A stretch of DNA of 64,000 nt, taken from a virus. The stretch is taken from the IMG/VR virus record IMGVR_UViG_3300009314_000003, positions 32,001-96,000 of that record; one strand, given 5' to 3'. Below the pieces are notes generated by a model. The model was not told the DNA's origin. It worked only from the letters and a program-made list of their open reading frames with translations, and made no database searches. This document shows, one piece after another, positions 30,325-59,887 of the stretch (the stretch's first letter is position 1; every line of letters begins with the position of its first letter). A program made the translations under genes and the position numbers.

Positions 30325-30747
30325 ATGATTGAAGAACAACAACAGCAAGAAGAAGAAGTAACGGAAGAAGTAATGCTCCCAGAGGAAGTAATATCCCCCG
30401 AGGATTTATTTGAGGGAGATGATTCCTATCCTTACGGTCCTAAGGGGCCCAGCCGAGCTGAAATAAATACCCTCAAGGAGAAATATGGTGATCTACAACT
30501 AACTGAAGTTGCTGGCAATATCTATATCTACCGCCTTATGCTCAGGGGTGAGCATATGAAGCTGGTGGAGAGCGGCGCCCTGGAGGGCGATGATTCAGAG
30601 ATGATTACCGTGGAAACTCTCCTTGTCTGGCCTAATCCTAAGGAGATCGACTGGGATGCTGTAGGGGCCGGAGTGGTACCCACCCTATCAACAGATATGC
30701 TTCAGTTCTCGGGCTTCATTCGCTTAACCCAACCCATCAAGCTATAA
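30325..30747 (+). CDS. Putative tail assembly chaperone
   Basis: Acidic 140 aa; LKEKYGD..YIYRLMLRGE..LLVWP; GGAGG RBS; lies between tube and tape-measure position. Confidence 0.7.
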   Translation: MIEEQQQQEEEVTEEVMLPEEVISPEDLFEGDDSYPYGPKGPSRAEINTLKEKYGDLQLTEVAGNIYIYRLMLRGEHMKLVESGALEGDDSEMITVETLLVWPNPKEIDWDAVGAGVVPTLSTDMLQFSGFIRLTQPIKL

Positions 30748-30886
30748 CCTCCCCACACCCATAACGGGCCGCTGTTTTGGCCTGTAGGATGGTTTCATGC
30801 CATCACTAATCTGTGAGCAGACACCTCGAAATAGAATGACTCATAGGAGGTGGTGAGGTACGCCTTTAATGGAGTAATACTTACAC

Positions 30887-31486
30887 ATGTCTTATAAGGA
30901 AATAACCAGTTGGAAGCAACGTTGGGGCACCATCCATCAGATTGTTCTGGAGGGTATTACCTGCTACTATCGCAGTCTTACGGCGTGGGAGTTTACAGCC
31001 CTCAAGGAATTGATGGACCACAATCCCAGTGTCGACTGGGATAGTGTTATATGTTCGATGGGCCTGTTAGGATCCGATGTTTCACAATTCAAACTGGCTG
31101 GTACAACAACAACTATGTCCTCCCTTATACTTGAAGCCTCCATCTTTACTGAAGAGACCATAGGGCCTAGCGTGATAGAGGCTAGGGAGTGGGCCGCAAA
31201 GGTAGTGGAAGACAATTTCCTCATAGGTCTGGCCCTTGCCATCGGCAGTATATATCCAGGCTCTGATATTATATCCCTACTTAATGAGCCGGCTGAGAGA
31301 CTTATTAAACTTGGTGCCCTCGTAGAGCAAATCACTAAGCAACCCATCTTTAAGGATTCCAGTGGTCTTAAGGCTATGCCTCTAACAAAGACTGGAGAGA
31401 TGGCAGCACAAAATAAGGGTAAGCAAATAGCGGAGTCAACGCGTGCCCTAAGAGAGGAGATATCAAAGCAGCGTAAGAAGAAATAA
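30887..31486 (+). CDS. Second putative tail assembly chaperone (resembles the previous gene)
   Basis: WKQRWGTI..CYYRSLTAWE..AGTTTTMSSLILEAS parallels 30325..30747. Confidence 0.6.
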   Translation: MSYKEITSWKQRWGTIHQIVLEGITCYYRSLTAWEFTALKELMDHNPSVDWDSVICSMGLLGSDVSQFKLAGTTTTMSSLILEASIFTEETIGPSVIEAREWAAKVVEDNFLIGLALAIGSIYPGSDIISLLNEPAERLIKLGALVEQITKQPIFKDSSGLKAMPLTKTGEMAAQNKGKQIAESTRALREEISKQRKKK

Positions 31487-31490
31487 TCTA

Positions 31491-34400
31491 ATGCCGGATC
31501 AGAGAGAGACATTCGAAGAACTACAGCCACAGGAAGGTGGTGGGGCGCTGAAACAGCTTGCTGGTTTAGGCCTTGCCCTTGTAGGCTGGGGTATAGGCCT
31601 CACCCTGGCCAGATTCGGATTTACGGCCGGTAAAGCAGCTGCCTTGAAACGGCTGGCTGGTATAAAGAAACCAGCCACAGAGGTTCTTAAGCGCTATAAG
31701 ACAGCAGCTATTTACGCACAGGACAAGGGAGGTAGCTTCTCCCATTTTGCCTCCAAGGCAGGTATGCCTGGTGGTAAAGCATTAGCGGACATACGTTATG
31801 CGGCTGAGGAATCTCCTATAATCAAATCCTTTAGGACCTCAACTAAGAATAAGAGTATACTACAGAAGGTTGGAACCTACCGTAGTTTCCCCAGGGGTCA
31901 GAGAATAGAACTTGGACGGGGCCTTGCTGCTCACTACGGGCGGGAAATGGCTTTTGTGGCCCCTACCTTCTATGTTGGGGAGCAGATGCTCGGACGTTTG
32001 GGTTGGGGTGCACACCAGAGGGATGCTCATCAAGGCCCTGCCTGGTGGAATATACCGGGACACGCTGTCAACTTTGCCAGGTGGCTTCCAGGATTCCTGA
32101 CAATAGACCTGGGTGCTCGCCTGGGCTTCGGCCTGGTTGGTGCGGCTAAAAGGGCTACATCAAATGCTGTTTTTAAGAGTCAACCCCTCCGAAGCCTTCC
32201 GGAGATAATTACCAACGCCCGCCGTTACGCCAAAGACAATCTAGATTCCCCAGTCGTAAATCTCATTACCAGCACACTCGCTTCGGTACGTGCCTTCAGT
32301 CATTTTGTGGGAGGTAAGACAGATGCCAATAACCAGACTAAGAGATTTGCCGAGCGTAGTTATAAAACTATCAGTGGGTATCGGCGCACAGGGGCTACTG
32401 CTAATGAGTATATAACCGAGAACACACGCCGTCTCTTTAAGGATTATAGACGCTTCAAGGCTAAGGCTAAGAGTGACCTGAAGCGGGCCTTATCCACTGA
32501 CTATACCAGGACTGGGGCAGAGTTAACTCGCTTATTTGATCCTGATGCTGCAAAGTCATCTCCTATACACATATTCAAGAAAGGGTTTGGCGTTGAGTAT
32601 GGAGGTATGAGGGAAATGTCCAGGCATCTGTTTGAGCGCAAGATGCCTCTGGTGGCCAGGTTATCGGGGTTGGAGAGCCTTCGGATGCGCCATCTCAAGG
32701 GGATTGGGCAATCCGAGGAGTGGAAACGCATCTTCAGAGTAATTTACAAGGGAATTCAATCGGCTAGGGAATTTGGTGATGCGGGAAACCAGGTTAGAAA
32801 ATTAGTCAAGGGTGGATATTCTGAGGGTGGGAAACGTTCCTTTGACGACCTCATTGTAGATTCCAGACTCTTCTTCGATCCCGTGACTAAGGAAGTTCGT
32901 AACCTCTCCGGTTTTACCTTTAAGGACATAATTGGCAGGTCCCTACACTATGCCTCTAAGCGCCTCACCTTTAACACACCCCTCGGTAAGATTGATCTGG
33001 TTAGCATCTTTGGCGGACGTGCTGTAGCTAGTTACGGTATGCCCAGTATAGTTCGCCTGGAGCATGGACGTGTACCGACCAAGGCTATTCAACGGTTGTA
33101 TGGTGTAGAGGTATATCCTACCCCAACAGACCCAAGCGCAAAGCAATTTACTCAGGTACTAGCAATAAAGGATAGGAAGAGCGGCTACACAGTCTGGGCT
33201 GATGTATATGGTGGTGATGCAAGTGGTGGAACTGGGCTGGAAGTGGTGGCAAGGAATATGAGTCTTGTCTCCAGTACCGATAGCACGAAGATGATGAGTG
33301 TCTATGCTATGCGGGAGAGTATGTGGCCTCCGCTTGATAAGAATGCACTTAATGAAAGATTTAAGGGTGGGGGTATAACCCCAACAATTAGAAAGTGGCT
33401 GCATAACAAGTTTGACTTGTTTGGGGGAGGAAAGTTTTATCCATCTGTGTGGGAACTTGCTCTACACCATATGCGCGGTGATTCAAGGGTGTGGACTATA
33501 TTTCATCCGGAGGGTCTTCCTGCCAGGGTAGCCAGCGGTATCTACAAGATGAAGGACCTTGCCGCCTCCGGCGGGCAGAAGGCAAGCTATCAGATTCAGT
33601 ATTTGGACGCCGCCTACAGGAAGGCGCGCACAGAAGCAAGTAAGCTGCTCACAAGGGATGATATACTGAGTCGTATATTACGTAAAGCTTATGAGGGAGA
33701 TACCATAAAACTATGGGGCGTTAAGACAGAATTCAAGATTAAGGATATCATTGATGAGAAGATTGTGGAGGACGGCTTACCAGAACCTCTGCGTCTTGTG
33801 AGGGAGATACTTAAAATTGATGAGACTGCATCCGCTGATAGTAGACTCGGGAGAAATCTTAAGCAGATCATAGATGAGTTGACAGATAGGATGCCTGAGA
33901 TGGGCGGTTTTCATAAGTATGTCTCAGAGGGAGGGGTTGGAGAGACAGCAACTGTAAAAGCCAAAAGGTTCCTGGCCGAAAGAGCTATACTACGTGAGGC
34001 GGATACCCTGGGGGCGGCCAGGCAACTAGATACTCCCCACGCCGGTGATACGGTTAAAAATATTGTAGATGATATCCTCGTGGCATTTGATGATCTGGCC
34101 AAGACAAATGCTATAACCACCAAGGACCTGCTGAAGGTTAAGATGGGAATGCAAGGGATAAGATGGGAGCACGAAGTACGCAACCTAGGCAGCCTGAGTG
34201 GAAAGAGTCAGATAACGGGGCGTGGTATTGATAAACTCTTTCAGGCAGTAGGCGAACGGGGCCTCATGGCTAAGGAGTATAAGGACGTTGAATCGTTATT
34301 TGACTTCCTCAGGAAGGCTAAGATGGAAGATCCAGAGCTGTGGGATTCCTACCGGCGTATGACGGGCAAGTTCAAAACCACAATGATGGTTGACTCTCAG

Positions 34401-37400
34401 AGACATGCCCTGGAGATGATGTCTGATGTATTTGGGGAGAGCCCTTACCTGCTCTTCGAAGGGGGCCCGATGGGATGGGCCAAGAATGTCTTTTCATGGG
34501 GTTATGATACCTTCGGACGTACTATGGACCTGGTTGGCCTGGGCTGGGATCGAGGACGTTTCCCGAAGTTCATGGGGAAGGATAGTATAGCCGGACTCTG
34601 GACCAAGAGATTCGCTCTCATGGGTGGTGTTGCAGCCGCTTACCAGACGGTAGACACTGTTACTGATACCACCCCCATATTTGCTGGTTCCTTGGCCCAT
34701 GACGAATTAGTCGCTGTTAGACATAAACGGACTGGACTAGTGAGCCTTGTCAAAATTGGTGAGTTTGTTGAAGATGGTAGAGCCGATAATAATCAATTTG
34801 AAGCCTGGACCAACCATGGCGGCAAAATCGGCTGGTATGACATTACCCAGGGCATTAGACATAAGCGTGAGACCACATTAGTGAGGGTTGAGTTAGAATC
34901 CGGTGCCGATCTATTTGTCACGGATAACCACTCTCTATTCACGGGATCGGAGAGCAACCTACAACTTCAAGCGCCAGAAGTTGGGAAGCATATTGTCGCG
35001 TTAGAGTCGCAATACCCATCAGGGGCAGGTATATCAAGAGTTGACATCAGTGATCTTGTAACGTCGTTGCCAGAGAAGCTGTACGTGGCTGTTGAGGACC
35101 CGTCCTTAAATCGTGGCAACTACAAACTCCGCGCGGATGCAGAGGATATTTGGGGTAGCAACTATGTGAGGTGGCTACGGGACAGGGTAACATATCATAA
35201 AGCTGTTTATAGGACCACCTATGAAGCCTATACGGAGTGCCCAAAGAAAGAGTTCACTAAGATTCGTCACTTTAGATCTCCTGTGAAGATCCCGTCTGGG
35301 TGGGAGCTAACTAGGGAGTTTGGATATGTGTTGGGTATGTTTGCTGCTGAGGGGTGTGCAACTAAGTCTAATGGTAGTGTGTATGGCGTTCTCTTCAGCG
35401 CCAAGGATTATGGTAGTCTTGGCCACAGATATAAAGGCCATATTAGATCAAGGCTCGTCTCTGCACTCAAGACTGTATTTCCAGATGCCAAGATTTCACA
35501 TTCTCACAAGAAAATAATACTCCACGGGTATCTATACTACTGGCTCTTCCATGACGTATTCAAGATGGGCCATGGCGCGTCCAATAAACGCCTCCCGGAC
35601 TTTGCACTGAATGGCCCGGAAGGGTTTAGGAGAGGACTCATTGATGGATATATTGATGGGGATGGATATCAGAAGCAGACCGGCGACACCATCAGACCGG
35701 CCGGTATTGGGAGTACTTCCCGCGAACTCGTCACTCAAGTTTATCTATTACTCAGGATGGAGGGCTGCCAGGTAAAGCTGTCTAGCAGGGAGCCAAGACA
35801 GGGACAAATTATTGATGGTCGCGTTGTTAATGGTAACTATCGAACCTATGCGATTACCATCAGGGATCTACACACAGATTTGTATGATGTATCAAACTCC
35901 AACCATGCTAGAACTATACGAAGTAACAGGGTCTCGTCCGCAATAGCAAGTATGTCCGCATGTGAGGAGCAGCCAGACTTTGTGTATGATATCTCCGTGG
36001 CTGGTGCGGAGAAGTTCATCGCTGGATTTGGTTTCTTGTATGCACACAACACTGCCCTCGATGAGGGGACTACGGTTTTCTTAGCTGACCAGGCCGTAAG
36101 GGCCAGGTTATTCGCCGGTTACGTATATGATATTACAGGCATCACGGATACAATGAAGTATCTTGAGGGTCTTATGCCGAAGAGTACACAAGTTCTGCCA
36201 GGGGCAGCCATGGGTTTCGCTATGGGTGGTGTACCAGGAGCAATTACCGGCGGTATTCTTAATGCCTGGACCCAACCGGTCCTCAAGGAAGGCCCCCTCT
36301 CCTTCCTCTCCCTCTTACCCCCCACTGCCCCATTTGTCTCTGACATGACTAAGAGCTTCAAGGAGCTACAGGATTTATATTCCGGGAGGGAGCTAGAAGC
36401 CGTTAGAAAAGGATCGGGCTGGCCTTTTGGTTCTGTTCCTATTGAGGGTTGCCTCACCGAGAGAACCGAGGTCTTAGTTGCTGACGGTGGTACCACGTCT
36501 ATAAGGGCCATTAAGGTTGGGGACTGTGTTATTGGGCCGGCTGGTCCCGTTCTTGTAACAGCTACCAAGGATCGATACACCACTCCTAGTGAACAACTCT
36601 ACACAATCATCTCAAGATACAACCGATCTGACGAGGTTGAAATTACAGGCAACCATCCTGTACTAGTAGCAGAAGATCCTTTTAGATGCTCTGTTGTATC
36701 CAATGGGACCTGTTCCCCGAGGCGTAACCAGAAGTGTCACAAATGCAGCCATCCGTATTGGCAGTCCTACAAACTCGGCTGGAAGCGGGCCGATGATATT
36801 ACCAGTGATGACTTACTAGCAATACCACGGCGCAGGTTCAATAGCAGCTCCGAACATGTTATCCGGTGGGTGGACTTCCTTGGTGATGATTATAAATACG
36901 TTGGTGGCCACGTCTGGGTTAATAGTAAACTGGGCACTTTTGGCAATGAGGCTCTCAGAGCAATCGTTGACCTGGTCCTGGATGATCTACCACATAAGGA
37001 TTCTGAGAAGCAACGTAGAATTGAGGCGATCGCTACACAGTCTGGCAGGATGCCCAGACAAGTTCGTCAGAAGATGGTAGATGTGCGGGACAGACTTAGA
37101 GATGGATGCCCTCGAGATTGCATTGATTATGTGGATCTTGGTTCCTTGGCAGAATATCTGCCACTCTCCTATGAGACGGGGCGCTTTCTTGGTCTTTACG
37201 CCGCCGAGGGGAGTGTGTGTGATAATGGCACTATATCATTTGCTTTCCACGCCAACGAAATAGAGTATCACCAGTTTGTTGAGTCGTGCATGCGCAGATA
37301 CTTTGGTTCGGACACAGTTACTCATGTGTCGGGCCCACAAACCGCAGGGACAAATCAGTGGGCTGTTCAATGCTTCTCCACACCTATAGCCAGCATCCTG

Positions 37401-40400
37401 GGAAGAATGTTCAACCGCGGAGCTTCTAGTAAGGACATCCCGGCCAGGTTGTTTGAGGCGAACGATGATTTCTTGCGTGGGTTTCTGAGGGGACTATTTG
37501 ATGGGGATGGACACCACAATTTGATAAAACCAAGAGTGGAGATGCGCCTGGCCAGTAAGGATCTGATTAATCAAGTTCAGTTGGTACTGGAGCATTTCGG
37601 TGTCGTGGGATTTGTGTCCCAGGTGGACAATAATGGCTTTGATGCTTACGAAATCCTTGTGAGCAGCTCTAATGCCCGTGCCCTACTCCAGCTTATGGAG
37701 GGCGTACATGAAAGCACATTCTACGATAGCCTGCCTGGTAAAGGAGCCTGGGTTTGCGGAGACTTCATCTTCACGGAAGTTCATAAGATTTCATCCAGGT
37801 CATGTCCTGAAGGAACCCATGTATATGATATCGAAGTCGCAGAGGGTGAATCCTTCCGCACAGTTGGACTCCATCTTCATAATTCAAGAATTACAGCATA
37901 CTCTCCTAACTGGTACCCCATGTTGAAGGCTCAGTATAAAGCCACCCCGGCCCTTTACGGTTCCAAGCTTGAGCAGTGGGCCTTTAAGGACCTTCCCTTT
38001 GTCGACTTCAGCTTTGGTGACCTTATTGACCCCGACTACCTAACCAGGAAACACTATTACGACAGGCCCTATATTTCGTGTCTAACTCCAGGTACCTTAA
38101 TTATAGGCGATAGAATTACAGCCATAGATAAAATCAGGGAAGGCTCACATGTTTATACTAAGTCAGGAGAACTATCAAAGGTTACCGAGGTACATAGAAG
38201 AAATGTAAAAGAGCATATCACCAACATCCGTATTGCTAAACACTCAGAGCCGCTGAGACTTACCTGGAATCATAAAGTGATGGTGATGCAAACTGAAGTA
38301 TGTAGTCATAGACACAACAGCTCTAAGTCTAGACGAGTGTGTAGATTTGGGTTAACAAACAGTGATTGTGTGAAATGTACAAACAAACTTTATAAGAACT
38401 ATGAACTCGGGTGGGTACGAGCTAAGCATATAGAACCTGGGGACATAGTAGTTAAATCCATACCAGATACGTCAGAAATTGTCGAATCAATCAACATAAG
38501 TGATTTTGTGCTAGATTATCCAGTTTATGATGGTTCAGTATATTATGCGCCGAGAGCAAATAAGCTGTCAGCTAAACTAGCTTGGATTAAAGCTCATATC
38601 CCCCAACACAAAGATAATGAGAAGGGAGCACTAAAGAGATTATCTGCTGCTTACGATATACCACTTGGGTATTTATATAATCACTACTATACTTGTAATA
38701 CTAATCAGTGGGAACGTTGGACTATACCAGATGCTCTACCTCTCGATAAGAACTTATTTACCATACTAGGATACTACCTTGCCGAGGGCTCACTAACAAC
38801 CAAAGGGGTTAGTTTCGTCTTTCATGAGAAAGAGTTGAATACATATGTTAAGGAACTAATCAATGCTGCTTCTAATCTTGGATTCAAATCATCGTCGTGG
38901 CGATATAAAGAAGGCTCAAAGGCTATTGAATTAACCATATACAGCGTAATTCTCAGGAAGATGGTAGATAGCTTATGTGGTAGGGCCGAGCAAAAACACA
39001 TTCACTCGTTATTGATGAAGGCCCCGAGGGAGTCCAGAATTGCATTTGTTAGATCCTATATAAATGGAGACGGTTGTTATACGGCCGTAGATAGGGGTAT
39101 TTGGACGGTAACATATACGAGTGTTGTACCTTCAATTAGTTATCAGATCCAGCAAATGTTGTCAACACTTGGTGTGTTTGCTGGTATCCACAAAAGTGAA
39201 TGTCCCCCATATAAGATCAAAATAAATGATAAAGTAAATGGCATATCCTCTGGTGTATACTATATAGGTACGATAAATGGTGTTGAGTGTAGAAAGCTTC
39301 TCGACTTATTTGAGATGGACCATCCACAAACCAATCCACCAGCTCCGAATAGGTGGGGGTGGATGGATAATAAGTTTATTTATTTAGCTGTTAGAAATGT
39401 AGACCGTGAGTATTATGAGGGACCAGTGTATGATATTACAGTTGATGGTGAGCACAACTACCAAACATCATCTGCAATAGTTCATAACTCCGATATTCCA
39501 TTTTTGGAGGTACCTCTAGTAGGACCGGCCCTGGCGGCAACAGCCGGACAGGCATTCCGGGCCATTCACCCCATGACACTTGATCACCCTATGCACAAGG
39601 AGGAGGTGCAGAGGGCTTTGCAGGAGGGCGTGGCCTACAGTTGGCGAGGGGAGGAGGAGCCCGGCTTCGGTCCCAGGTACACTGGTTCCGTGTATACAGA
39701 TGAATCATACAGTCAGGGTCGTATTATGGGGACACTCGAGGGTCGCAGTCCTACGATCCGCAGCAATATGGATGTACGACAGATCATCTCCGAGCAGATT
39801 TACAGGGGGTGGATTGAGCCGGCAGGTCTGGCTGGCTTCTGCCTACCAGAGGGATCTGAGGTTATTACTTATGGGGGCCTTTATAAGAAGGTGGAGGATA
39901 TTAATCTCGGTGATAAACTTATCACCCATAGGGGCCACCCTGGTAAAGTCACTAGGGTATATAAGAGATTTGTGGATGAGGATATTATTGAGCTTAGTGT
40001 TTCCCACTATGCCGATGTCCCTGTCCAATTGACGGGGGAGCATCCAGTCTTGGTAGCAAAAACGAAGCCCTGCCTGAAAACCCACGACAAACAACATTGC
40101 CTACCACTTCATGGATCTTCTAGGTGTTATTGTTGTCCAAGAGAGTTCAACACCAATCTGGAGTGGGTTGTGGCGAAGGATATTAAGGAGGGTGATTTTG
40201 TTGTTCAACCATCCTCTATAGGCCTTCCACATAGCGGTCTTTTGGATTTAGGTAAGATGGATGAGGTGGTAAATTATAAAAGGGTAAATAACAACAGCCG
40301 GTGCTCAAGAGATAGGGATCACAAATACTTTGTTATCGAGCATGACAATATTAGGTGGTGGAATGGTTCCAAGAAACGATTTCCAAGATACTTGGAGCTA

Positions 40401-52563: not shown

Positions 52564-52565
52564 TT

Positions 52566-52751
52566 ATGCATATTACTATAGAGGTTGACCTAAATAATAT
52601 TCCCTATGATGTTGATGTCACTGAGATTATTGGCTATCTACAATCATATCTTCAAGAGACATACCAGGTTGATGTGAATATGATGGTGGATGACTACGAC
52701 TTCGTCAATAAGATTGACCTGGGCCGGCAGATGAAGGCTATGAAGCGTTAA
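52566..52751 (+). CDS. Small acidic hypothetical protein
   Basis: 61-aa ORF filling the gap between two giant genes; TAATG coupling to the next gene. Confidence 0.65.
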   Translation: MHITIEVDLNNIPYDVDVTEIIGYLQSYLQETYQVDVNMMVDDYDFVNKIDLGRQMKAMKR

Positions 52752-55700
52752 TGTCTATTTACAACACCACTGACAGAATCAACTATCTCTCAACCGTTGA
52801 GCGCATCTCCAAGGAAAACGGCATTGATCCTGACTTTGTAGATGCCATGATAGGTGCAGAGTGCTCCTGGGACCTCAATTTGGCTGGCGGGACAGGCGCA
52901 CTTGGATTAATGCAACTTATTTCGGACAGCAGTATTGTGGAGATTATACAATGGCGGGAATCTCAATTCCATGGACAAGATCTGAAGGAATTAACAACCA
53001 AAGCAGGAGAAGATCCAGAAATCAATATTCGGATTGGTATTGACTATTTGAGGTATATTGACCTTCACCCCAGCACTTATGTCAGACCGAATGCTGCTCT
53101 CCTCGCCGCATCATATAATCAGGGTTGGCCCACTGTGGGGGACGCCGGCTGGACGGTCCCTACAGATGCTCAGGTCTACGTAAATAATATTCAAAAGCAG
53201 ATGCGTGTCTTGAAGAATAACAGTAGCTTCCTGCTGGCTGAGTATTATCCCATCGAGCTTGAGGACACCTCCGCCGACGATCTCGAGAAGAAGAAGCTAT
53301 ACTACAAGATGAGCGACCCCAAGGAGTTGGGCCTCCTGGTTATTGGTGACCTGCAATTCACCGTCCCACCCACAGCCATTAACTTCTCCTCAGACAGTCA
53401 GGCCATCTCTATTCCCACCCTTCGCTCCTCAGGTGATCCAGTCATTACCAGCAACACAGCAGTACCAAGGGCCCAGGTGGTTCTTTACTTCACAGGTGTG
53501 AATGCAATTAATAGGGAACTGAGACCCCTTTACGCTATGTTCCATAAGGCACCCTTCACCACGGTGCAGAACAACACCCTCCACAAACTTATGGTAGGTA
53601 AGAAGCAGGAGCAGTTGATGAATACATCTACTAAAGATTTTTCCCCTATCCCTATTATGCTGGAAGGAATTACCCTACACACCGTTCCAGGATTTCCTGG
53701 TACGATACAGGCCAATGTCTCCCTGGCATTTATAAATCACTTCCCCCATGTATCGGAGATGAAGTTCTTCAAAAAGACAGAAGACGCCAAGGCCCAAGCC
53801 AGGTATATGACTTACCGAAGTAGTAAGGCCTACAACACCATCAACCTTAGGGAGGATGGTAACCTCACATACATTACAGCGGAGGGAACCCCTGGTACCG
53901 CAGGTAAACCAGCGGGTGGTAAAACTACTCTCTATCCCGGGGGTAGTTGGCCCTTCATACGTCACTACAGGGGTCTCCTAAGGGAGTTTAAGGAGTCATA
54001 CTTTGCTGATATGTCTAATAGGGTAGAACCTTGGTGTGAATATAATGCAACTTCTGCGCAAGGTATAAAAATCCAATACAATAGCATCTTAGTCTACGAC
54101 ACAATGGAGCAAAACCTACTACGCAACCTGCGAGGAATAAGTGACATGTTGCACCGCCTCAAGGTAATGAGGGCATTGGCCACCAAGGACATTGCCATTA
54201 ACGCGGCCACGGGAGGTGGGCCTAAGAGCGTACTTATTGATGGTAAAGAAGTAGACGTTCAACCGACTGATATTGGAATGTTTACCTTTGAAGGTAGAGG
54301 AGCAGAAATATTAGAAAAGTATTTTAGTTTCTGGGAGCATTATATCGATGCCTTCGCGGGTATAAGATATACACTTAATGAGCTGAGGACAGAGATTACA
54401 CAGGCTTATAACCAATTTAAAACGATAACGGAGGAAAAGGCAGAAGGCATCGAGGTTGATTTCACCTTCCTAAGTGATGACGACCAACTCACAAATAACA
54501 GTGAGGTGATTAAGAAGAGCCTGTTACAATATGTTTATCTCCTACGTAAGAGAAAAGAACTCGCCAGTGAGACGGGAATGGATGAGGAGAAAAGTAAGCT
54601 AAATATTGCAATAGATAAGTATCATAAACTCTATGAAGCTATGGGACAGCACTTTAATGATTCCGTTGAGGACTGGGCAAAGGAGGAAAAGGTTAATCCT
54701 AAGATAGTCCATCCCATCGAATTTACTCTGGGGTGGGATGATACACTTAGTCCCAAATACAATGAGAATGCACTAAAGGAGGCACTAGAGAAACAGAAGG
54801 ATACGGCGGTTCAGAAGGCTAAACTACGATATAATACTGTCGTCAACTCTATAGGTGTTTCGTATCAGAATAATATTACTCCTATTCCTATTCTCGCCTT
54901 CGAGAACCCAACTTTCCAACATATGGGAATATCTAACGCAGTGGTCACTATCAATCTCAAGACAAAAGACGAAGATCTCCTTGCCCGTTTGACTGATGTA
55001 AGGCAAAGTATAGCTCATATCTCACGTGCTGTTGCGTCCGGCGGCAATAACGACCTGGCTGATCTGGAGCTATCAAAAATCACCATCACTGATGGCCTAT
55101 TGAACTCCCTCGGCCTGAACGAATTTGCCCTCAGGGACCTGGATGTACGGAGTATCTCCGGCTCTCCGGGATGGTACGAGATTACTTTGGAGCTTGTACA
55201 AAATGAAATGGATCTTACTAAGTTTGAACAGTTAAGCAGTATTCCCTCCTACCAACTTCCGAGGGATGCAGTGGCAACCCTCTTTCCATCCAAGGATTTT
55301 GAGCCGTATGACTTTTTTGACTCGCTTAAGGAGGAATATAATAAGAAAAACAAAGCACTTCGTGAGCGTATAATGGATTACAGATTCTATACGTCAGAAG
55401 TATGCAGGAGGGTGATAAAGAAACATTATGCAAGGCCTACAGCGAAAGACGCATTTGGGGAATATGTACTTGGCTCGGAGTATGGAGTAAGTGTCGAGCT
55501 AATTAGAGAACTGCCGGGGGGTAACCCATATTACGAATTCATTATCGAGGTGTATAATATCGATACCGGGGTGAAAGATACCTCCAGGACAAAATTCTAC
55601 AGGAGTATGGTTGGGCCATTACTCAGACGAGCAACCATTATCTGCCAAATGGCCCGTGCCTTTGAGAATGAAAAGAATTACGAACTAGGTGTCGGGTCCT

Positions 55701-58700
55701 TAACTGTTCAACTTGAAGCTCATTACCTAAGATATATTAGCAGGGTTGCTAATGGTATTGATACCCTCCTAAAGCTTGATCCAGAGGTAGTATCCTTACC
55801 TGCTACTATTTTTGGAACGGAAGTTGCCGGGGTCGGTGATATTGAAATTAAGTTACAACAACCGGGGATAATAGACACTACCCTCGATCAGATGAGATTA
55901 AAGAGCCTTTACATTCTCTTAAGCCGAAAGGACTTCCGCGATTTCCTTGATTCCTGTGAGGATTTGAATATAAGTAGCTTCGATACACCAGGTTATTTTA
56001 CAAGCAGTACACCAGTAAGTAGCTTCGATACACCAGGTTATTTTAGTTATCTTACAAGCAGTATATTGGGGTTTGGACAACAATACCTTGTTGGACCAGA
56101 GCCTCCCACCACATATGATAAATACCTTACCAACGAGGAGGAAGATCATCTCACCAAGCTCGCGAAGAGTATAGGCAAATATTTCGAAGAGGCACACAAA
56201 ATGATCAAGGGTAATTACCCTGACCTGGATTTACCTCCGGACGTGCTTGAGGAGAATGGCCATTATATCTTTGGCCCGTCCTTCTATTTGAAGGCTAAAG
56301 GCAGTCTGCAAGAGGATGCTATGAAGAAGACGAGTGAGCTTTTATCAGGTTATCGCTTGTCTGTGGCTTTACAGCTTGCCATTATCCAGGGTCAGATTAC
56401 CAATAAAATGTTTATTGATAAACACAACAAGATAGGGGAACGTATAAATGACCTTCTCACTAAACTAAAGGTAGATGAGAAGGTGAAAGATATACTTAAG
56501 CTAGAGAATGTTAGGGATGAGTATGAGCAAATCAATAATGTGATTGGCGTTGAAACGGACACAGGTGGCAATATAACAAATGAAACTGTATTAGCCTATA
56601 AATCGCTAATAGATGCTGATTTACTAAAGGATATAGGTGTAATGGCCGCCGGACGTGTATTTGTTGATGAGAATGGGGTGGAGCGTGATATAACACCACA
56701 AATGACAAGTAGGCAATTCAGAAGACTTATAATACGCTCCGCGTGTTTTGAGTACGCTTACTTTATGAGTATACTTGAGGAAGCCTTGAACGAGAAGATA
56801 GGACTTAACGGATTGAAGATAGTATATTTTAATGCGGAGGGGGAAACAACCGAGGCTGGTAATGCGGTTAGTGCTGCAATCGGAGGGTCCGGTGTTAATA
56901 CAGAAATAAGTCTTGTCAAATTACTTGACAATACACTAAACTTCCAGAACAAGGGCCTCGCAAAAGGCGCCGGTGAATTACAGCGATATATAAGGATCAC
57001 CTCCGCTACCGATACCGATGGGGTTGATTTTGAAGGGGAAGCTATACAGAATATACTCATCAAACTTTATAATGATGCTGTACGCCTTATCAAGAATGAA
57101 AATCCTGAAGCGTTGATGAATTACTTTGGCTTCAGCGACCTCGGTTCTGCGAAGGAGCGTTATGAATTAGATAAGAAGTTAGCTAAGATTGTAGATACAT
57201 CCACCAACGGTACTATGGATAGGGCATTCCCAACATTTAAGCTTTTCTTCATTGAGGAGGATACACCGAACTGGCTCTTGTTTGATGATTTCTATACTTA
57301 TGACGCTGTTAACTCCATAGATGTTGTCGAGTCAAAGCACGCTGCTAGCTCGACCGCTGTTATTAAACTTTCTAACGTCACAAACAAACTCACGGGGGAT
57401 CCTTTTCAGGATATGTGGAAGGATTCTGATGTTCCCGCCACCTTGCCACGTATTCGCCTCAGGCCTGGCACACCAATCCTGCTTCGACTTGGCTACGGCC
57501 CTGATTATCGTCATCTTCCTGTTGTTTTTATGGGCACAATCACAGAGGTGAAGCCGGGGCCTGTGCTTGAGTTCACTGCCCAAAGCTGGGGAGCAGAACT
57601 AACAAATTCCGTTGGCTCTAATAAGGGAATGAAATTTGGTGCTTTGTCTCCTGAGAAAACTATTGGTAGTGTTGTGGTCAGTGTTTTAGACCAACTACCG
57701 GGGATGCATCACTTTGGCCGCTGGACAATGAAGGCGCTTGATGATGCAGACCCTAATATGATACCAAATTCCTTTTACAAGATGGCTCACTTTGCTAAGA
57801 GTGGACCGGCAAAGTGGTTAGCCGGCTGGGGATTGGATTTTGCTGGTGTAGATACGGATATGTATAAGAAACTAATCGGCGATATAACTTCTTCCCAGAA
57901 GGATTTAGAGAATCTTCTCTCAGGCAGAAGACCAGACCACCTAATGCTAAATATAGGTAATGAACTATATGATAATGTGTACCTGAACGGGATAAGGTCT
58001 TCGGGGTACGGATGGGCCAATTTCTTGGGAATAGGAAATTTAGATCACCTAAACAACAGAGGTAATTTTGACTGGGTTATATATAACCAGACAGGCTGGG
58101 ATGCTCTCTGGGAAGCTTGTCTACATCTGGGGGATTATATTGTACGGCCACTCCCTTATAATGAAGGAACTAATATGCTTCAACAACCCCCGAGGATGAC
58201 CCTTTACATTGGCCCGCGTGAGGGATACTACCAACACTCTGACCAGATGTTGTCAAACATGTCTTTAACTGACCAAATTACTGAGGCGATGGAGAAGGAA
58301 CTTAAGGAATTGTTAGATGGGAGTAATAATGGCCCTACTACTACTACAGTTGAACAATTATTTAAGGAGGAACTCCTTGCCCACGCGGCTGAATTATTTG
58401 AGGGGTATACCAGCCCAGGTATTATGGTAGGCATCTACTGGTTAGCAAAACAAGTGCTTTTGGATATGCACCCCGTAGCTCCATGTATTACCACAAGAGC
58501 TCTTGACATACTGGAAGAGATATTTCCATCTATGCGTAGGGGGCAGCATGCAGGTGTAAAAGTAGGAGGTTTTACAACGTCTGATAGGGCCGGAGTTTGG
58601 CGAATCCTTTGTGTTCTCTTAACGGGTAATCTTGAGGAAACTACTTTTACTGGTATGATTAACAAATACCGACCACAGTCTTTGAAGAAGTTTACTCAGA

Positions 58701-59887
58701 GGAACTCAAGTTCCTTTCTTGACTCTGTAAATAAGGAGAAGGCTGAGGTGTATTTCAGTAATTACACAGATTACTACGAATCTGACTTGACCGCTAGTAT
58801 TTCCGATCTCTTTACAACCAACTACTCATCTCAAGATACAACCGACTCCCTTATAAATCGTGTTATGAGGAGGGCTAATGTCGAAAAGTTTGCGGCGAAT
58901 AAACACTTTACCCCTGTCGTTGAACATCATTTCGTTAATAGCTGGGAAGATATTATGTCTAATGACATTATTGCCACGTCTGATTCCATGTACAACCACG
59001 TCAGGTTATTATTCAGTGGTGAGCCAACAGCCCATAAATCTTTAGAGGATCAGGATAAGCTTAAATCTTATGACACCTTCATTGGTTATGATATTGATCC
59101 TAACCATATCCGAACCTATGTTAGTTATCAGAAGAATGTTGATCCTAACATAATATTCAACTTTTTGGAGGCCAAGAACTTCACGAAGTATGAAAATGAG
59201 GTCATTCTTCCTAACTACATGAATATTGCTAACCAGATATTATCTAATGTGGTCAAGCCTATGTATCAGGGCAGCCTTACATTGGTAGGTAATCCACATA
59301 TCCGGCCCTGGCATATTGTTCATATGTATGACGACATAACTAATATGGATGGGCCGGTGGAGGTAGAAGAGGTGGTTCATTCCTTCTCCTCAGAGCGTGG
59401 ATATACCACAACCATAGTTCCAAACCTGGTTATCTATGATAGAGATATTAATACCCAGGCCGACCTTCTCTATCTTGAGATGCTTGGTAGGTACCGGAGT
59501 CATCGCCTTGGTTGGGATATAGTAATTGGTGGAGGTAAAGCACTAGGTAAGACGGCAATAGTAGCAGCCACAGCTGCTCTGTTTTCATTGGCCGTCCCAG
59601 CGGCTATACTAGGAGGGACCTACTTCATAATCAAAGGGGGTTGGAATATATTCGAGAATTATGCAAATCAAACAATAGGCATGGCCGGCATTATTGCAGG
59701 GAATAATCCCCTTACCTTTGCCTATCTTAATTATAATGGTAAACCTTACATAGCTGGAATGGAAGGTATTTACGATATGGGTCGCAGTATATCCAGTATT
59801 GTGGTTGGTCAGTTACAAAAAGATGGTGAGAAGACTGGTATTTCTCCTTTTGTGTGGAATAGGCTCATGTCAAATATAACGGAGTGA
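52751..59887 (+). CDS. Giant baseplate hub / tail-associated lysin with N-terminal SLT lytic transglycosylase domain
   Basis: AMIGAECS, GALGLMQL, NIRIGIDYL, AASYNQG; hub-like LRLGYG..VFMGTITEV..FTAQSWG and GSLTLVGNP..VEVEEVVHSF..GYTTTI. Confidence 0.82.
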   Translation: MSIYNTTDRINYLSTVERISKENGIDPDFVDAMIGAECSWDLNLAGGTGALGLMQLISDSSIVEIIQWRESQFHGQDLKELTTKAGEDPEINIRIGIDYLRYIDLHPSTYVRPNAALLAASYNQGWPTVGDAGWTVPTDAQVYVNNIQKQMRVLKNNSSFLLAEYYPIELEDTSADDLEKKKLYYKMSDPKELGLLVIGDLQFTVPPTAINFSSDSQAISIPTLRSSGDPVITSNTAVPRAQVVLYFTGVNAINRELRPLYAMFHKAPFTTVQNNTLHKLMVGKKQEQLMNTSTKDFSPIPIMLEGITLHTVPGFPGTIQANVSLAFINHFPHVSEMKFFKKTEDAKAQARYMTYRSSKAYNTINLREDGNLTYITAEGTPGTAGKPAGGKTTLYPGGSWPFIRHYRGLLREFKESYFADMSNRVEPWCEYNATSAQGIKIQYNSILVYDTMEQNLLRNLRGISDMLHRLKVMRALATKDIAINAATGGGPKSVLIDGKEVDVQPTDIGMFTFEGRGAEILEKYFSFWEHYIDAFAGIRYTLNELRTEITQAYNQFKTITEEKAEGIEVDFTFLSDDDQLTNNSEVIKKSLLQYVYLLRKRKELASETGMDEEKSKLNIAIDKYHKLYEAMGQHFNDSVEDWAKEEKVNPKIVHPIEFTLGWDDTLSPKYNENALKEALEKQKDTAVQKAKLRYNTVVNSIGVSYQNNITPIPILAFENPTFQHMGISNAVVTINLKTKDEDLLARLTDVRQSIAHISRAVASGGNNDLADLELSKITITDGLLNSLGLNEFALRDLDVRSISGSPGWYEITLELVQNEMDLTKFEQLSSIPSYQLPRDAVATLFPSKDFEPYDFFDSLKEEYNKKNKALRERIMDYRFYTSEVCRRVIKKHYARPTAKDAFGEYVLGSEYGVSVELIRELPGGNPYYEFIIEVYNIDTGVKDTSRTKFYRSMVGPLLRRATIICQMARAFENEKNYELGVGSLTVQLEAHYLRYISRVANGIDTLLKLDPEVVSLPATIFGTEVAGVGDIEIKLQQPGIIDTTLDQMRLKSLYILLSRKDFRDFLDSCEDLNISSFDTPGYFTSSTPVSSFDTPGYFSYLTSSILGFGQQYLVGPEPPTTYDKYLTNEEEDHLTKLAKSIGKYFEEAHKMIKGNYPDLDLPPDVLEENGHYIFGPSFYLKAKGSLQEDAMKKTSELLSGYRLSVALQLAIIQGQITNKMFIDKHNKIGERINDLLTKLKVDEKVKDILKLENVRDEYEQINNVIGVETDTGGNITNETVLAYKSLIDADLLKDIGVMAAGRVFVDENGVERDITPQMTSRQFRRLIIRSACFEYAYFMSILEEALNEKIGLNGLKIVYFNAEGETTEAGNAVSAAIGGSGVNTEISLVKLLDNTLNFQNKGLAKGAGELQRYIRITSATDTDGVDFEGEAIQNILIKLYNDAVRLIKNENPEALMNYFGFSDLGSAKERYELDKKLAKIVDTSTNGTMDRAFPTFKLFFIEEDTPNWLLFDDFYTYDAVNSIDVVESKHAASSTAVIKLSNVTNKLTGDPFQDMWKDSDVPATLPRIRLRPGTPILLRLGYGPDYRHLPVVFMGTITEVKPGPVLEFTAQSWGAELTNSVGSNKGMKFGALSPEKTIGSVVVSVLDQLPGMHHFGRWTMKALDDADPNMIPNSFYKMAHFAKSGPAKWLAGWGLDFAGVDTDMYKKLIGDITSSQKDLENLLSGRRPDHLMLNIGNELYDNVYLNGIRSSGYGWANFLGIGNLDHLNNRGNFDWVIYNQTGWDALWEACLHLGDYIVRPLPYNEGTNMLQQPPRMTLYIGPREGYYQHSDQMLSNMSLTDQITEAMEKELKELLDGSNNGPTTTTVEQLFKEELLAHAAELFEGYTSPGIMVGIYWLAKQVLLDMHPVAPCITTRALDILEEIFPSMRRGQHAGVKVGGFTTSDRAGVWRILCVLLTGNLEETTFTGMINKYRPQSLKKFTQRNSSSFLDSVNKEKAEVYFSNYTDYYESDLTASISDLFTTNYSSQDTTDSLINRVMRRANVEKFAANKHFTPVVEHHFVNSWEDIMSNDIIATSDSMYNHVRLLFSGEPTAHKSLEDQDKLKSYDTFIGYDIDPNHIRTYVSYQKNVDPNIIFNFLEAKNFTKYENEVILPNYMNIANQILSNVVKPMYQGSLTLVGNPHIRPWHIVHMYDDITNMDGPVEVEEVVHSFSSERGYTTTIVPNLVIYDRDINTQADLLYLEMLGRYRSHRLGWDIVIGGGKALGKTAIVAATAALFSLAVPAAILGGTYFIIKGGWNIFENYANQTIGMAGIIAGNNPLTFAYLNYNGKPYIAGMEGIYDMGRSISSIVVGQLQKDGEKTGISPFVWNRLMSNITE
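55971..56045 (+). repeat. In-frame 30-bp direct repeat, period 45 (SSFDTPGYF x2)
   Basis: TAAGTAGCTTCGATACACCAGGTTATTTTA at 55971 and 56016. Confidence 0.95.

What the first reader, a model, noticed from the sequence alone, without database searches (positions are those of the whole stretch)
31491..59887. Candidate tail-encoded enzyme delivery module: nuclease-bearing tape-measure-like protein, exonuclease-RNAP and lytic hub
Seen: between the tail chaperones and baseplate genes lie three giant, tightly coupled ORFs carrying a PD-(D/E)XK nuclease, a DEDDh exonuclease with two-barrel RNAP motifs, and an SLT muramidase. Established: crAss-like phages, N4 and phiKZ-like phages package RNA polymerases and inject them. 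Inference: this myovirus encodes an injected early-transcription and DNA-processing machine in its tail operon. I do not recognise this architecture from described systems, but cannot confirm novelty without a search.
Basis: inference. Interest (0 to 1): 0.75.

Follow-up and report, generated by a model that had tools for sequence, protein, structure and literature searches.

The report
Tail-gene giants with hidden RNA polymerase
Three giant genes in the tail operon of an uncultured contractile-tailed phage encode a nuclease-bearing protein interrupted by five inteins, an exonuclease fused to an RNA-polymerase-like core in the 'tape-measure' slot, and a cell-wall-cutting tail hub, so the phage probably carries its own transcription enzyme in its tail, as one Thermus phage is known to do.

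Summary
ORF1 (31491-44669, 4392 aa), ORF2 (44659-52563, 2634 aa) and ORF3 (52751-59887, 2378 aa) lie tightly coupled between the tail chaperones and Baseplate_J.

- **ORF1:** half of it is five inteins, which this finding's text does not mention. The spliced 2210-aa protein carries a Cas4-like PD-(D/E)XK nuclease without the Cas4 cysteines.
- **ORF2:** it has no Pfam, PHROG or PDB sequence hit. In ten homologues at 14-26% identity, the DEDD acidic residues and a beta-prime-type DxDxD triad never vary. Profile-profile alignments place these on RNase T and on the catalytic barrel of RNA polymerase beta-prime, above all column-shuffled controls.
- **Second barrel:** the beta-type barrel is supported by motifs only. 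Both AlphaFold models failed.
- **ORF3:** it starts with an SLT domain and matches the hub proteins of Bacillus jumbo phages.

The same three-giant module occurs in about a dozen metagenomic phages and in 0305phi8-36-like Bacillus phages, where ORF2's counterpart was called the tape measure.

The closest precedent is Thermus phage P23-45 gp96, so this is a new variant of a known kind. Injection and transcription are inferred, not shown. The scan has reported similar tail-slot polymerases on other genomes.

The parts
30325..31486 (+). Two small ORFs (30325-30747, 30887-31486) in the tail-chaperone position
   Evidence: Assigned by position only. No Pfam or PHROG hit. They correspond by synteny to the two-gene chaperonin of 0305phi8-36 and WH1 gp098/gp097.
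31491..44669 (+). ORF1: 4392-aa precursor, 2210-aa protein after splicing. N-terminal hydrophobic segment at aa 22-40.
   Evidence: The spliced extein is colinear with intein-free homologues. The family has 20 metagenomic clusters.
34689..36050 (+). Intein 1 (aa 1067-1520; Ser1 ... His-Asn, +1 Thr) with a LAGLIDADG endonuclease
   Evidence: Pfam Intein_splicing match ends at the last residue; LAGLIDADG_3 hit. The 60-aa spliced junction aligns ungapped to L007 and L006 homologues.
36450..37883 (+). Intein 2 (aa 1654-2131; Cys1 ... His-Asn, +1 Ser) with LAGLIDADG
38079..39488 (+). Intein 3 (aa 2197-2666; Cys1 ... His-Asn, +1 Ser) with LAGLIDADG
39840..41216 (+). Intein 4 (aa 2784-3242; Cys1 ... 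His-Asn, +1 Cys) with LAGLIDADG
41466..42428 (+). Intein 5 (aa 3326-3646; Cys1 ... His-Asn, +1 Thr), no recognised endonuclease domain. The same site is occupied in the seven relatives fetched first.
   Evidence: The junction aligns across intein-free WH1 gp096 and Moorella CDS0026.
42570..42983 (+). Cas4/RecB-like PD-(D/E)XK nuclease domain of ORF1 (aa 3694-3831), without the Cas4 cysteines
   Evidence: phrog_1706 E 7e-20. Profile hit to Cas4 4IC1 at E 4e-5. Invariant GT..H, D, E-I-K and Q...Y motifs. Present in all 17 homologues longer than 1700 aa that one search returned, and in the 3 fetched ORF1 homologues tested; cleanly absent from the Bacillus and Moorella homologues.
44659..52563 (+). 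ORF2: 2634-aa giant in the 'tape-measure' slot. N-terminal hydrophobic segment at aa 10-28; well-conserved C-terminal 130 aa.
   Evidence: Five homologues of 2529-2695 aa found by full HMMER search; four more found by synteny.
46396..47238 (+). DEDDh (DnaQ/RNase T-like) exonuclease region of ORF2 (aa 580-860): D594, E596, D718, H845, D850
   Evidence: Invariant residues. hhalign to 11 RNase_T domains: 153 columns, score 30.4, against a maximum of 13.3 in 40 shuffles. No Pfam, PHROG or PDB sequence hit.
47506..48558 (+). Candidate beta-type barrel region of ORF2 (aa 950-1300): an R.vPgG..N..R.K.Q motif, an invariant Lys at about 1235, and an SR...G...E-like motif
   Evidence: Motifs lie in the order of E. 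coli beta. The hhalign score of 25.5 is not above the shuffles (2 of 40 reach it). Inferred.
50800..51072 (+). Beta-prime-type catalytic barrel of ORF2 (aa 2048-2138): (N)RxP motif, then D2113-W-D2115-G-D2117
   Evidence: hhalign to E. coli beta-prime 417-489: E 1e-3, score 34.7 against a shuffle maximum of 24.5. With ten sequences: score 38.3, E 3e-4, against 24.2. The three Asp are invariant in 10 of 10.
52566..52751 (+). 61-aa ORF between ORF2 and ORF3, present (55-70 aa) in most relatives
52751..59887 (+). ORF3: 2378-aa tail hub-like protein with an N-terminal SLT lytic transglycosylase (aa 17-132, window 52799-53146) and a C-terminal hydrophobic segment (aa 2264-2282)
   Evidence: Pfam SLT 32.7 bits. 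phrog_20474 E 1.5e-61 and phrog_52 'tail protein'. tblastn to WH1 gp094, KLEB27-3 'putative baseplate protein' and Moorella CDS0032. The 0305phi8-36 counterpart is described as a gp27 hub homologue.

Best explanation
This is the tail-internal module of a lineage of contractile-tailed phages distantly related to Bacillus phage 0305phi8-36.

- **ORF1** is made as a 4392-aa precursor. Five inteins splice out to leave a 2210-aa protein with an N-terminal membrane-type segment, a conserved core of unknown function and a Cas4-like nuclease.
- **ORF2** occupies the slot usually given to the tape measure. It is a single chain that joins a DnaQ/RNase T-type 3'-5' exonuclease to a cellular-type two-barrel RNA polymerase core with an intact DxDxD metal site.
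- **ORF3** is the hub or tip protein, and its SLT domain cuts peptidoglycan.

Inferred mechanism: ORF1 and ORF2 are built into the tail, probably in or at the tube lumen, held by ORF2's conserved C-terminus near the hub. They leave the tail on contraction after the hub breaches the wall. ORF2 then transcribes the first phage genes as the DNA enters, as shown for P23-45 gp96.

Shown here: the genes, the inteins, the nuclease, the SLT, conserved catalytic residues, synteny, and profile-level likeness to RNase T and beta-prime.

Inferred: the second barrel, enzyme activity, presence in the virion, ejection, and the role in early transcription.
For: - **Anatomy and coupling:**
- **Contractile-tail context:** sheath, sheath-initiator-like ORF and Baseplate_J.
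- **Synteny:** the order chaperones, giant 1, giant 2, small ORF, giant 3, baseplate recurs in about a dozen metagenomic contigs. It also recurs in Bacillus phages vB_BceM_WH1 and KLEB27-3 and in Moorella phage MTATph1. In the Bacillus phage records the giants are annotated as virion or structural proteins.
- **0305phi8-36:** the chaperonin genes are described as the only non-structural genes near the tape-measure gene. orf146 is called the tape measure and orf147 the gp27-like hub (PMC2147016).
- **Inteins:** Pfam hits end exactly at each terminal Asn, the junctions align ungapped to intein-free homologues, and the inteins are 21-29% identical to each other.
- **Nuclease:**
- **ORF2 beta-prime barrel:** the family and, independently, the Bacillus-phage counterparts (NRYPTIN ... 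KADHDGD / KADYDGD) each align to the NRAPTLH ... NADFDGD barrel. E values are 3e-4 to 1e-3, above every column shuffle. The triad is invariant at 14-26% identity.
- **ORF2 exonuclease:**
- **Link to the Bacillus 'tape measure':** weak hhalign hits for ExoII, the beta-like Lys region and DxDGD are colinear between the ORF2 family and the Bacillus protein.
- **Precedent:** a tape-measure-fused virion RNAP that transcribes pre-early genes (PMC10770324).
Against: - No Pfam, PHROG, NCBI-type or PDB sequence model recognises any part of ORF2. PF00623 and PF05183 find nothing in the genome.
- hhalign probabilities are modest (21-40%), and the beta-type barrel is not above the shuffles.
- ORF2 itself has GKQP where relatives have NR.P, and its second Lys motif is degenerate.
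- Both AlphaFold models were unusable (pLDDT 35 and 42), so no fold was confirmed.
- Similarity to P23-45 gp96 is limited to the DFDGD motif (probability 1.9%).
- A DEDDh exonuclease is not a known partner of any RNA polymerase.
- The candidate second (non-virion) polymerase elsewhere in the genome has no detectable relatives.
- No virion proteomics exists for this phage.
Confidence: 0.55

Rival explanations
1. ORF2 is only a structural tape measure or ejection protein. The exonuclease and polymerase motifs are relics of a captured enzyme that no longer works, or short chance matches.
For: No HMM or fold confirmation. The protein is long and largely helical in the low-confidence models. It has a conserved C-terminus and a hydrophobic N-terminus, as tape measures do. 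Hardies et al. assigned the 0305phi8-36 counterpart as tape measure from tail length. ORF2 departs from the family consensus at NR.P and at the second Lys motif.
Against: All three Asp of DxDxD and the D, E, D of the exonuclease are invariant in ten proteins that share only 14-26% identity. Two separate clades align to the same beta-prime barrel above all shuffles. In P23-45, a structural tape-measure role and an active polymerase coexist in one protein.
Confidence: 0.2
2. ORF2 is a two-barrel polymerase, but not a plain transcriptase. The fused DEDDh domain may edit or process 3' ends, so the enzyme may synthesise or repair DNA (as archaeal PolD uses two barrels), or make primers or RNA on RNA.
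For: DEDDh domains are the usual proofreaders of DNA polymerases. The exonuclease and barrel fusion is conserved in all ten homologues, and an ExoII-like motif lies in the same order in the Bacillus proteins. QDE-1-type two-barrel enzymes use several templates (background knowledge).
Against: The barrel carries the RNA-polymerase-type signature NR.P ... ADFDGD, and its best match is beta-prime. Every characterised phage two-barrel enzyme is an RNA polymerase.
Confidence: 0.12
3. The PD-(D/E)XK domain of ORF1 is not a payload against the host. It is a domesticated or still selfish homing-type nuclease, sitting in the insertion hotspot that also holds intein 5.
For: The domain is a clean insertion relative to the Bacillus and Moorella homologues: profile positions of about 21-193 are missing there. 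It lies 48 aa after intein 5, which has no recognised endonuclease of its own. In KLEB27-3 the ORF1 homologue is split by a separate 211-aa ORF in the same stretch of the protein as the intein-5 and nuclease site. The genome is crowded with homing endonucleases.
Against: The domain is about 50% identical with invariant catalytic residues across the whole environmental clade, and it is the best conserved part of ORF1. P0025 has the nuclease but no C-terminal intein signature. The domain is part of the mature protein rather than a removable element.
Confidence: 0.1

Closest known systems
Thermus phage P23-45 gp96 (tape-measure-fused virion two-barrel RNAP; Chaban et al. 2024, PMC10770324)
   Same: A giant protein in the tape-measure slot after the tail chaperones, carrying a single-chain two-barrel polymerase core with a DFDGD-type site. 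It is proposed to transcribe pre-early genes during DNA entry. The phage also has a second, non-virion RNAP.
   Different: P23-45 is a siphovirus, and its polymerase lies in the N-terminal 1200 aa of a 5002-aa protein. Here the tail is contractile, the barrels lie about 900 aa apart in the middle and C-terminal part, and a DEDDh exonuclease is fused upstream. A second giant with a nuclease precedes it. No significant sequence similarity to gp96.
Bacillus phage 0305phi8-36 orf145-orf146-orf147 (and WH1 gp096-gp095-gp094)
   Same: The same gene order and sizes. ORF1 and ORF3 are detectably homologous to their counterparts. The ORF2 counterpart carries NRYPTIN ... DHDGD/DYDGD and aligns to beta-prime. 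These are virion proteins by the authors' mass spectrometry and annotation.
   Different: orf146 was described only as a tape measure. I found no paper that reports a polymerase in it. The Bacillus ORF1 homologues lack both the inteins and the nuclease domain. ORF2 is too diverged for BLAST.
crAss-like phage phi14:2 gp66 and phage N4 gp50 (giant virion RNA polymerases)
   Same: A giant virion-delivered polymerase embedded in a much larger protein and encoded with structural genes. gp66 is a two-barrel enzyme.
   Different: Both are podoviruses that carry the enzyme in the capsid or tail-associated cargo. N4 gp50 is a T7-like enzyme, not a two-barrel one. Neither has a fused exonuclease.
Multi-intein host proteins (for example haloarchaeal MCM with four intein sites, PMC10643990)
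   Same: Several inteins are packed close together in the most conserved stretch of one protein. Here there are five within about 400 extein residues.
   Different: The host protein is a phage tail-module protein of unknown core function rather than a replication enzyme. All five sites are occupied at once in one allele.
Cas4 / RecB-family PD-(D/E)XK nucleases (for example 4IC1)
   Same: Shares the GT..H, D, ExK and Q...Y motifs; profile hit at E 4e-5.
   Different: No cysteine cluster, no CRISPR context, and embedded in a 2210-aa tail-module protein.

Membership tests
Two-barrel (double-psi beta-barrel) RNA polymerases | Beta-prime-type barrel with a DxDxD metal-binding triad preceded by an NR.P motif | tested here: met
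   The three Asp are invariant in 10 of 10 homologues. The R/K..P motif is about 55-60 aa upstream. hhalign to E. coli beta-prime 417-489: E 3e-4 to 1e-3, above all 40-60 shuffles. Replicated with the Bacillus clade.
Two-barrel (double-psi beta-barrel) RNA polymerases | Second, beta-type barrel that supplies conserved basic residues | tested here: inconclusive
   One Lys is invariant in 10 of 10. K..G...KG and SR...G...E-like motifs align to E. coli beta 1054-1152 in the right order. The hhalign score is within the shuffle range (2 of 40 and 5 of 60 reach it).
Two-barrel (double-psi beta-barrel) RNA polymerases | The fold itself (two DPBBs facing each other, bridge helix) | tested here: inconclusive
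   AlphaFold2 with six-sequence alignments gave pLDDT 35 and 42. Foldseek and VIA-align were uninformative.
Two-barrel (double-psi beta-barrel) RNA polymerases | Recognition by curated models (PF00623, PF05183) | tested here: not met
   No hit at E up to 5-10. This is expected for very divergent phage enzymes, but the test was not passed.
Tape-measure-fused virion RNAP (P23-45 gp96 type) | Polymerase encoded in the tape-measure slot downstream of the tail chaperones | tested here: met
   Gene order in the window and in about a dozen relatives. The counterpart is called TMP in 0305phi8-36.
Tape-measure-fused virion RNAP (P23-45 gp96 type) | Sequence relationship to gp96 | tested here: not met
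   hhalign aligns only the DFDGD motif, probability 1.9%. This is a functional analogue, not a family member.
Tape-measure-fused virion RNAP (P23-45 gp96 type) | Protein present in virions and active on pre-early promoters | not testable with these tools
   Only the 'virion structural protein' annotation of the Bacillus homologues is available.
DEDDh (DnaQ / RNase T) 3'-5' exonucleases | Four acidic residues in ExoI, ExoII and ExoIII, plus His-x4-Asp | tested here: met
   D594, E596 and D718 are invariant in 10 of 10. H845-x4-D850 is invariant in the first six and present in 7 of 10. hhalign covers positions 1-157 of the 164-position RNase_T model, score 30.4 against a shuffle maximum of 13.3.
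DEDDh (DnaQ / RNase T) 3'-5' exonucleases | Recognition by PF00929 or by solved DEDDh structures by sequence | tested here: not met
   No Pfam, PHROG or PDB profile hit.
Cas4 / RecB-type PD-(D/E)XK nucleases | D ... (D/E)xK core with a Q...Y motif | tested here: met
   Invariant D, E-I-K and Q...Y. phrog_1706 at 7e-20 and 4IC1 at 4e-5.
Cas4 / RecB-type PD-(D/E)XK nucleases | Four-cysteine Fe-S cluster of Cas4 proper | tested here: not met
   No conserved cysteine in the domain alignment. It is therefore RecB/Cas4-like, not a Cas4.
Inteins | Cys/Ser at position 1, terminal His-Asn, Cys/Ser/Thr at +1, Hint fold, and exact absence from homologous alleles | tested here: met
   All five meet this. 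Junctions align ungapped to intein-free homologues. Four carry LAGLIDADG_3. Splicing itself was not tested.
SLT lytic transglycosylase (PF01464) | Pfam match above the gathering score | tested here: met
   32.7 bits against 21.3, aa 17-132. Weak match to EmtA structures.
T4 gp27-type tail hub | gp27-like hub domains | not tested
   Inferred from homology to WH1 gp094 and KLEB27-3 gp035, from the published gp27 assignment of 0305phi8-36 orf147, and from phrog_52 'tail protein'.

The most novel reading that the evidence does not exclude
In the whole 0305phi8-36-like lineage of contractile phages, cultured Bacillus jumbo phages included, the 'tape measure' may be an ejected two-barrel polymerase whose fused DEDDh exonuclease works with it, by editing or by processing 3' ends. 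No such pairing is known for any RNA polymerase. It would be delivered together with a partner giant that brings a Cas4-like nuclease, so that the tail injects a small nucleic-acid-processing machine rather than a single transcriptase.
Probability: 0.2. Interest if true: 0.85.

Novelty: new variant of a known kind. Interest (0 to 1): 0.68.

Why it matters
Virion-borne RNA polymerases let a phage start transcription without the host enzyme. They are documented for N4, phiKZ-like and crAss-like phages, and through the tail tape measure only for the P23-45 group of siphoviruses.

If ORF2 works as proposed, the strategy also exists in contractile-tailed phages. The gene called 'tape measure' in the long-studied Bacillus phage 0305phi8-36 would then be a polymerase. 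That can be tested directly in cultured phages.

The exonuclease fusion has no counterpart among RNA polymerases. Five inteins in one tail-module protein suggest that its unknown core is under strong constraint. They also show that a 490-kDa precursor has to splice five times before the mature protein can take its place in the tail.

Tried and rejected
- **Structure prediction:** AlphaFold2 on ORF2 aa 1435-2634 and 540-1739 with six-sequence alignments gave pLDDT 35 and 42.
- **Fold searches on the better model:** Foldseek against PDB found nothing at E <= 0.001; one RNA Pol I subunit appeared at rank 31, which is not significant. VIA-align wide returned only helical hairpins.
- **ESM Atlas feature search:** no usable hit. 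An earlier Atlas call failed because the machine was busy.
- **Sequence libraries for ORF2:** Pfam and PHROGs on the whole protein, on both halves and on the exonuclease region found nothing. PDB phmmer and hmmsearch found nothing.
- **Own genome:** PF00623 and PF05183 found nothing.
- **Homologue searches for ORF2:** megablast and tblastn against INPHARED found no match. The word-indexed search returned only the phage's own truncated record. A profile search with 'longer' lengths returned nothing, because its length window excluded most members.
- **Related-loci scans:** The viral scan gave one near-duplicate of P0006. The metagenome scan gave none.
- **Comparison with P23-45 gp96:** hhalign was not significant.
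- **Conserved core of ORF1 (alignment A7):** no Pfam or PDB match.
- **Early-arm 1041-aa ORF with DFDFD:** no Pfam, PHROG or tblastn hit, so the two-polymerase scheme is not verified here.
- **MAG handle:** looking up the MAG that holds L006 failed because the record is not held.
Full report
**1. What is there**

The window belongs to a 147,988-bp linear IMG/VR virus record, estimated 77% complete. The structural arm runs on the + strand:
- terminase (4145-6427), protease and major head protein;
- tail sheath (19169-21826);
- an endonuclease-rich tail-tube region;
- two chaperone-position ORFs;
- the three giants;
- a 254-aa ORF, a sheath-initiator-like ORF and Baseplate_J (61161-62366).

The giants are ORF1 31491-44669 (4392 aa), ORF2 44659-52563 (2634 aa) and ORF3 52751-59887 (2378 aa). 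ORF1 and ORF2 overlap by 11 nt. A 61-aa ORF (52566-52751) fills the only gap.

**2. ORF1 is a five-intein precursor**

Pfam finds five Intein_splicing stretches and four LAGLIDADG_3 domains. The boundaries are:

| Intein | First residue | Last residue | +1 residue |
|---|---|---|---|
| 1 | S1067 | N1520 | T |
| 2 | C1654 | N2131 | S |
| 3 | C2197 | N2666 | S |
| 4 | C2784 | N3242 | C |
| 5 | C3326 | N3646 | T |

Each excised segment on its own matches the intein model up to its last residue.

Removing the inteins gives a 2210-aa protein that aligns colinearly with homologues lacking them. For inteins 1-4, the 60-residue spliced junctions align ungapped to the L007 and L006 homologues. For intein 5, the junction aligns across the intein-free Bacillus and Moorella proteins.

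The inteins are only 21-29% identical to one another, so they are not recent copies. All five sit within about 400 extein residues. This is the stretch that stays recognisable even in the Bacillus and Moorella phages, but it matches no Pfam or PDB entry. The intein-5 site is occupied in the seven relatives fetched first.

**3. The ORF1 nuclease**

A domain 48 residues after intein 5 hits PHROG 'CRISPR/Cas system associated' at 7e-20, and also exonuclease and RecE-like PHROGs. A six-sequence profile hits Cas4 SSO0001 (4IC1) at 4e-5. GT..H, D, E-I-K and Q...Y are invariant, and no cysteine is conserved. The domain is therefore a RecB/Cas4-like PD-(D/E)XK nuclease, not a Cas4.

It is present in all 17 homologues longer than 1700 aa that one search returned, and in the three fetched ORF1 homologues that were tested. 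It is cleanly missing from WH1 gp096, Moorella CDS0026 and one short metagenomic protein, where profile positions of about 21-193 are absent.

**4. ORF2**

Nothing curated recognises ORF2. A full HMMER search of 1.8 billion representatives found five homologues of 2529-2695 aa. Four more were recovered downstream of ORF1 homologues. Identity to ORF2 is 14-26%.

Across these ten proteins the following hold:
- the D and E of an F-D-T-E ExoI motif and the D of a G-q-N...a-D ExoII motif are invariant;
- an H-x4-D ExoIII motif is present in seven of the ten;
- one Lys in a K..G...KG-like motif is invariant;
- a Pro in an (N)R.P motif is invariant;
- all three Asp of DxDxD are invariant (DWDGD here; ADFDGD, DFDRD, DFDFD, DFDYD, DIDGD, DQDGD and others elsewhere).

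*Structure prediction failed.* The two AlphaFold2 models had pLDDT 35 and 42, and fold searches on the better one were uninformative.

*Profile-profile comparison with a permutation control.* I used this instead.
- Against 63 proteobacterial beta-prime sequences, the family's best and only local hit was ORF2 2048-2138 on E. coli beta-prime 417-489, the NRAPTLH ... NADFDGD barrel. The score was 34.7, E 1e-3, against a maximum of 24.5 in 60 column shuffles.
- With ten sequences the score rose to 38.3, E 3e-4, against 24.2.
- Independently, the Bacillus-phage proteins in the same slot (NRYPTIN ... KADHDGD / KADYDGD) hit the same barrel with score 34.4, E 8e-4, against 22.1.
- Against 11 RNase_T domains, the exonuclease region aligned over 153 columns (model positions 1-157 of 164). 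The score was 30.4 against a shuffle maximum of 13.3.
- The beta-type barrel aligned at the expected place (GDKMAGRHGNKG ... PSRMNIGQILE), but no better than the shuffles.

My reading is therefore graded:
- a DEDDh-like exonuclease: likely;
- a beta-prime-type catalytic barrel: likely;
- a full two-barrel core: probable, but inferred.

**5. ORF3**

ORF3 has an SLT domain at aa 17-132, above Pfam's cut-off. It matches a 1954-position 'endolysin' PHROG at 1.5e-61 and a tail-protein PHROG.

By tblastn it matches WH1 gp094, Edson, KLEB27-3 'putative baseplate protein' and Moorella CDS0032. The 0305phi8-36 gene in this position was described as an enlarged T4 gp27 hub homologue. In relatives the lytic domain is swapped for Peptidase_M23, SLT plus M23, or Phage_lysozyme.

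**6. Synteny and the link to cultured phages**

The order chaperones, giant 1, giant 2, small ORF, giant 3, two small ORFs, Baseplate_J recurs in every metagenomic relative fetched. It also recurs in WH1 (gp098/097, gp096, gp095, gp094), KLEB27-3 and Moorella MTATph1.

In the Bacillus phage records the giants are annotated as virion or structural proteins. Hardies et al. state that the two chaperonin genes are the only non-structural genes near the tape-measure gene.

Weak but colinear hhalign hits (ExoII, the beta-like Lys region, DxDGD) connect the ORF2 family to WH1 gp095.

Each giant has one strongly hydrophobic segment: at the N-terminus in ORF1 and ORF2, and near the C-terminus in ORF3.

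**7. Mechanism (inferred)**

By analogy with P23-45 gp96 (PMC10770324), ORF2 and probably ORF1 would be assembled with the tail by the chaperones and released on contraction. ORF3's SLT would open the wall. ORF2 would transcribe the first genes as the DNA enters.

The roles of the exonuclease and of the ORF1 nuclease are open. A possible non-virion polymerase elsewhere in the genome (a 1041-aa ORF with DFDFD) could not be verified.

**8. Comparison and novelty**

The kind (a polymerase in the tape-measure slot) is known from one siphovirus group. Giant virion RNAPs are also known from crAss-like and N4 phages.

New here:
- a contractile-tail lineage;
- the exonuclease fusion;
- the nuclease-bearing, intein-riddled partner;
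- the implication that the 0305phi8-36 'tape measure' is a polymerase.

I found no paper that states the last point. Hardies 2007 and Iyer 2021 list only the YonO-like orf99. The literature search covers open-access texts only.

The scan's own notes show similar tail-slot exonuclease-polymerase giants reported on other genomes. I treat these as leads, not as evidence.

**9. Verdict**

- Observation: confirmed.
- Interpretation: partly supported.
- Novelty: new variant of a known kind.
- Confidence that ORF2 is a tail-delivered two-barrel polymerase: about 0.55.

Noticed in passing
window 24398-25309, 26128-26853, 27244-28206: Three free-standing homing-endonuclease ORFs (phrog_4645 at 1e-31 and 4e-35; a LAGLIDADG PHROG at 1e-18) lie inside the region another note reads as a tail-tube gene split by seven group I introns. 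The endonuclease domain of intein 2 in ORF1 hits the same phrog_4645.
   Followed up: partly
G000:C1 6750-9873, minus strand (L106:251-3373): A 1041-aa early-arm ORF with DFDFD at residue 512 was flagged by another note as a YonO-like polymerase. It has no Pfam, PHROG or INPHARED tblastn hit, so it remains unverified. The same DFDFD variant occurs in the ORF2 homologue of L108.
   Followed up: partly
L107 (Bacillus phage KLEB27-3) 1271-8424: The ORF1 homologue is split into gp031 and gp033 by a separate 211-aa ORF (gp032). The split lies in the same stretch of the protein that holds intein 5 and the nuclease domain in the window's clade, which suggests an insertion hotspot.
   Followed up: no
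L002 (Moorella phage MTATph1) 11721-19077: The ORF2-position gene is broken by an annotated transposase (CDS0028) into several ORFs.
   Followed up: no
L006 98-9994 and L004 (ORF1 homologues of 3298 and 3437 aa): These homologues carry an extra 800-950 aa inserted after the nuclease region (extein positions of about 1914-1967). It is not recognised as an intein, and its nature is unknown.
   Followed up: no
L108, L109, L110 (hub genes downstream of ORF2 homologues): The lytic domain of the hub giant differs between relatives: SLT here, SLT plus Peptidase_M23, Peptidase_M23 alone, or Phage_lysozyme.
   Followed up: no
window 52566-52751: A 61-aa ORF lies between ORF2 and ORF3. ORFs of 55-70 aa sit in the same place in most relatives. 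It has no family hit.
   Followed up: partly
window 28247-29155: A 302-aa ORF after the tail-tube region hits a 'major head protein' PHROG (4e-25). The Moorella phage has similarly labelled small genes just after its sheath. These are probably tube or tube-like proteins with a misleading family name.
   Followed up: no
P0004 (public protein record of ORF2): The only database copy of ORF2 is a 1949-aa version on a 42.5-kb contig. It covers 73% of the protein and is cut off before the DxDGD motif.
   Followed up: no
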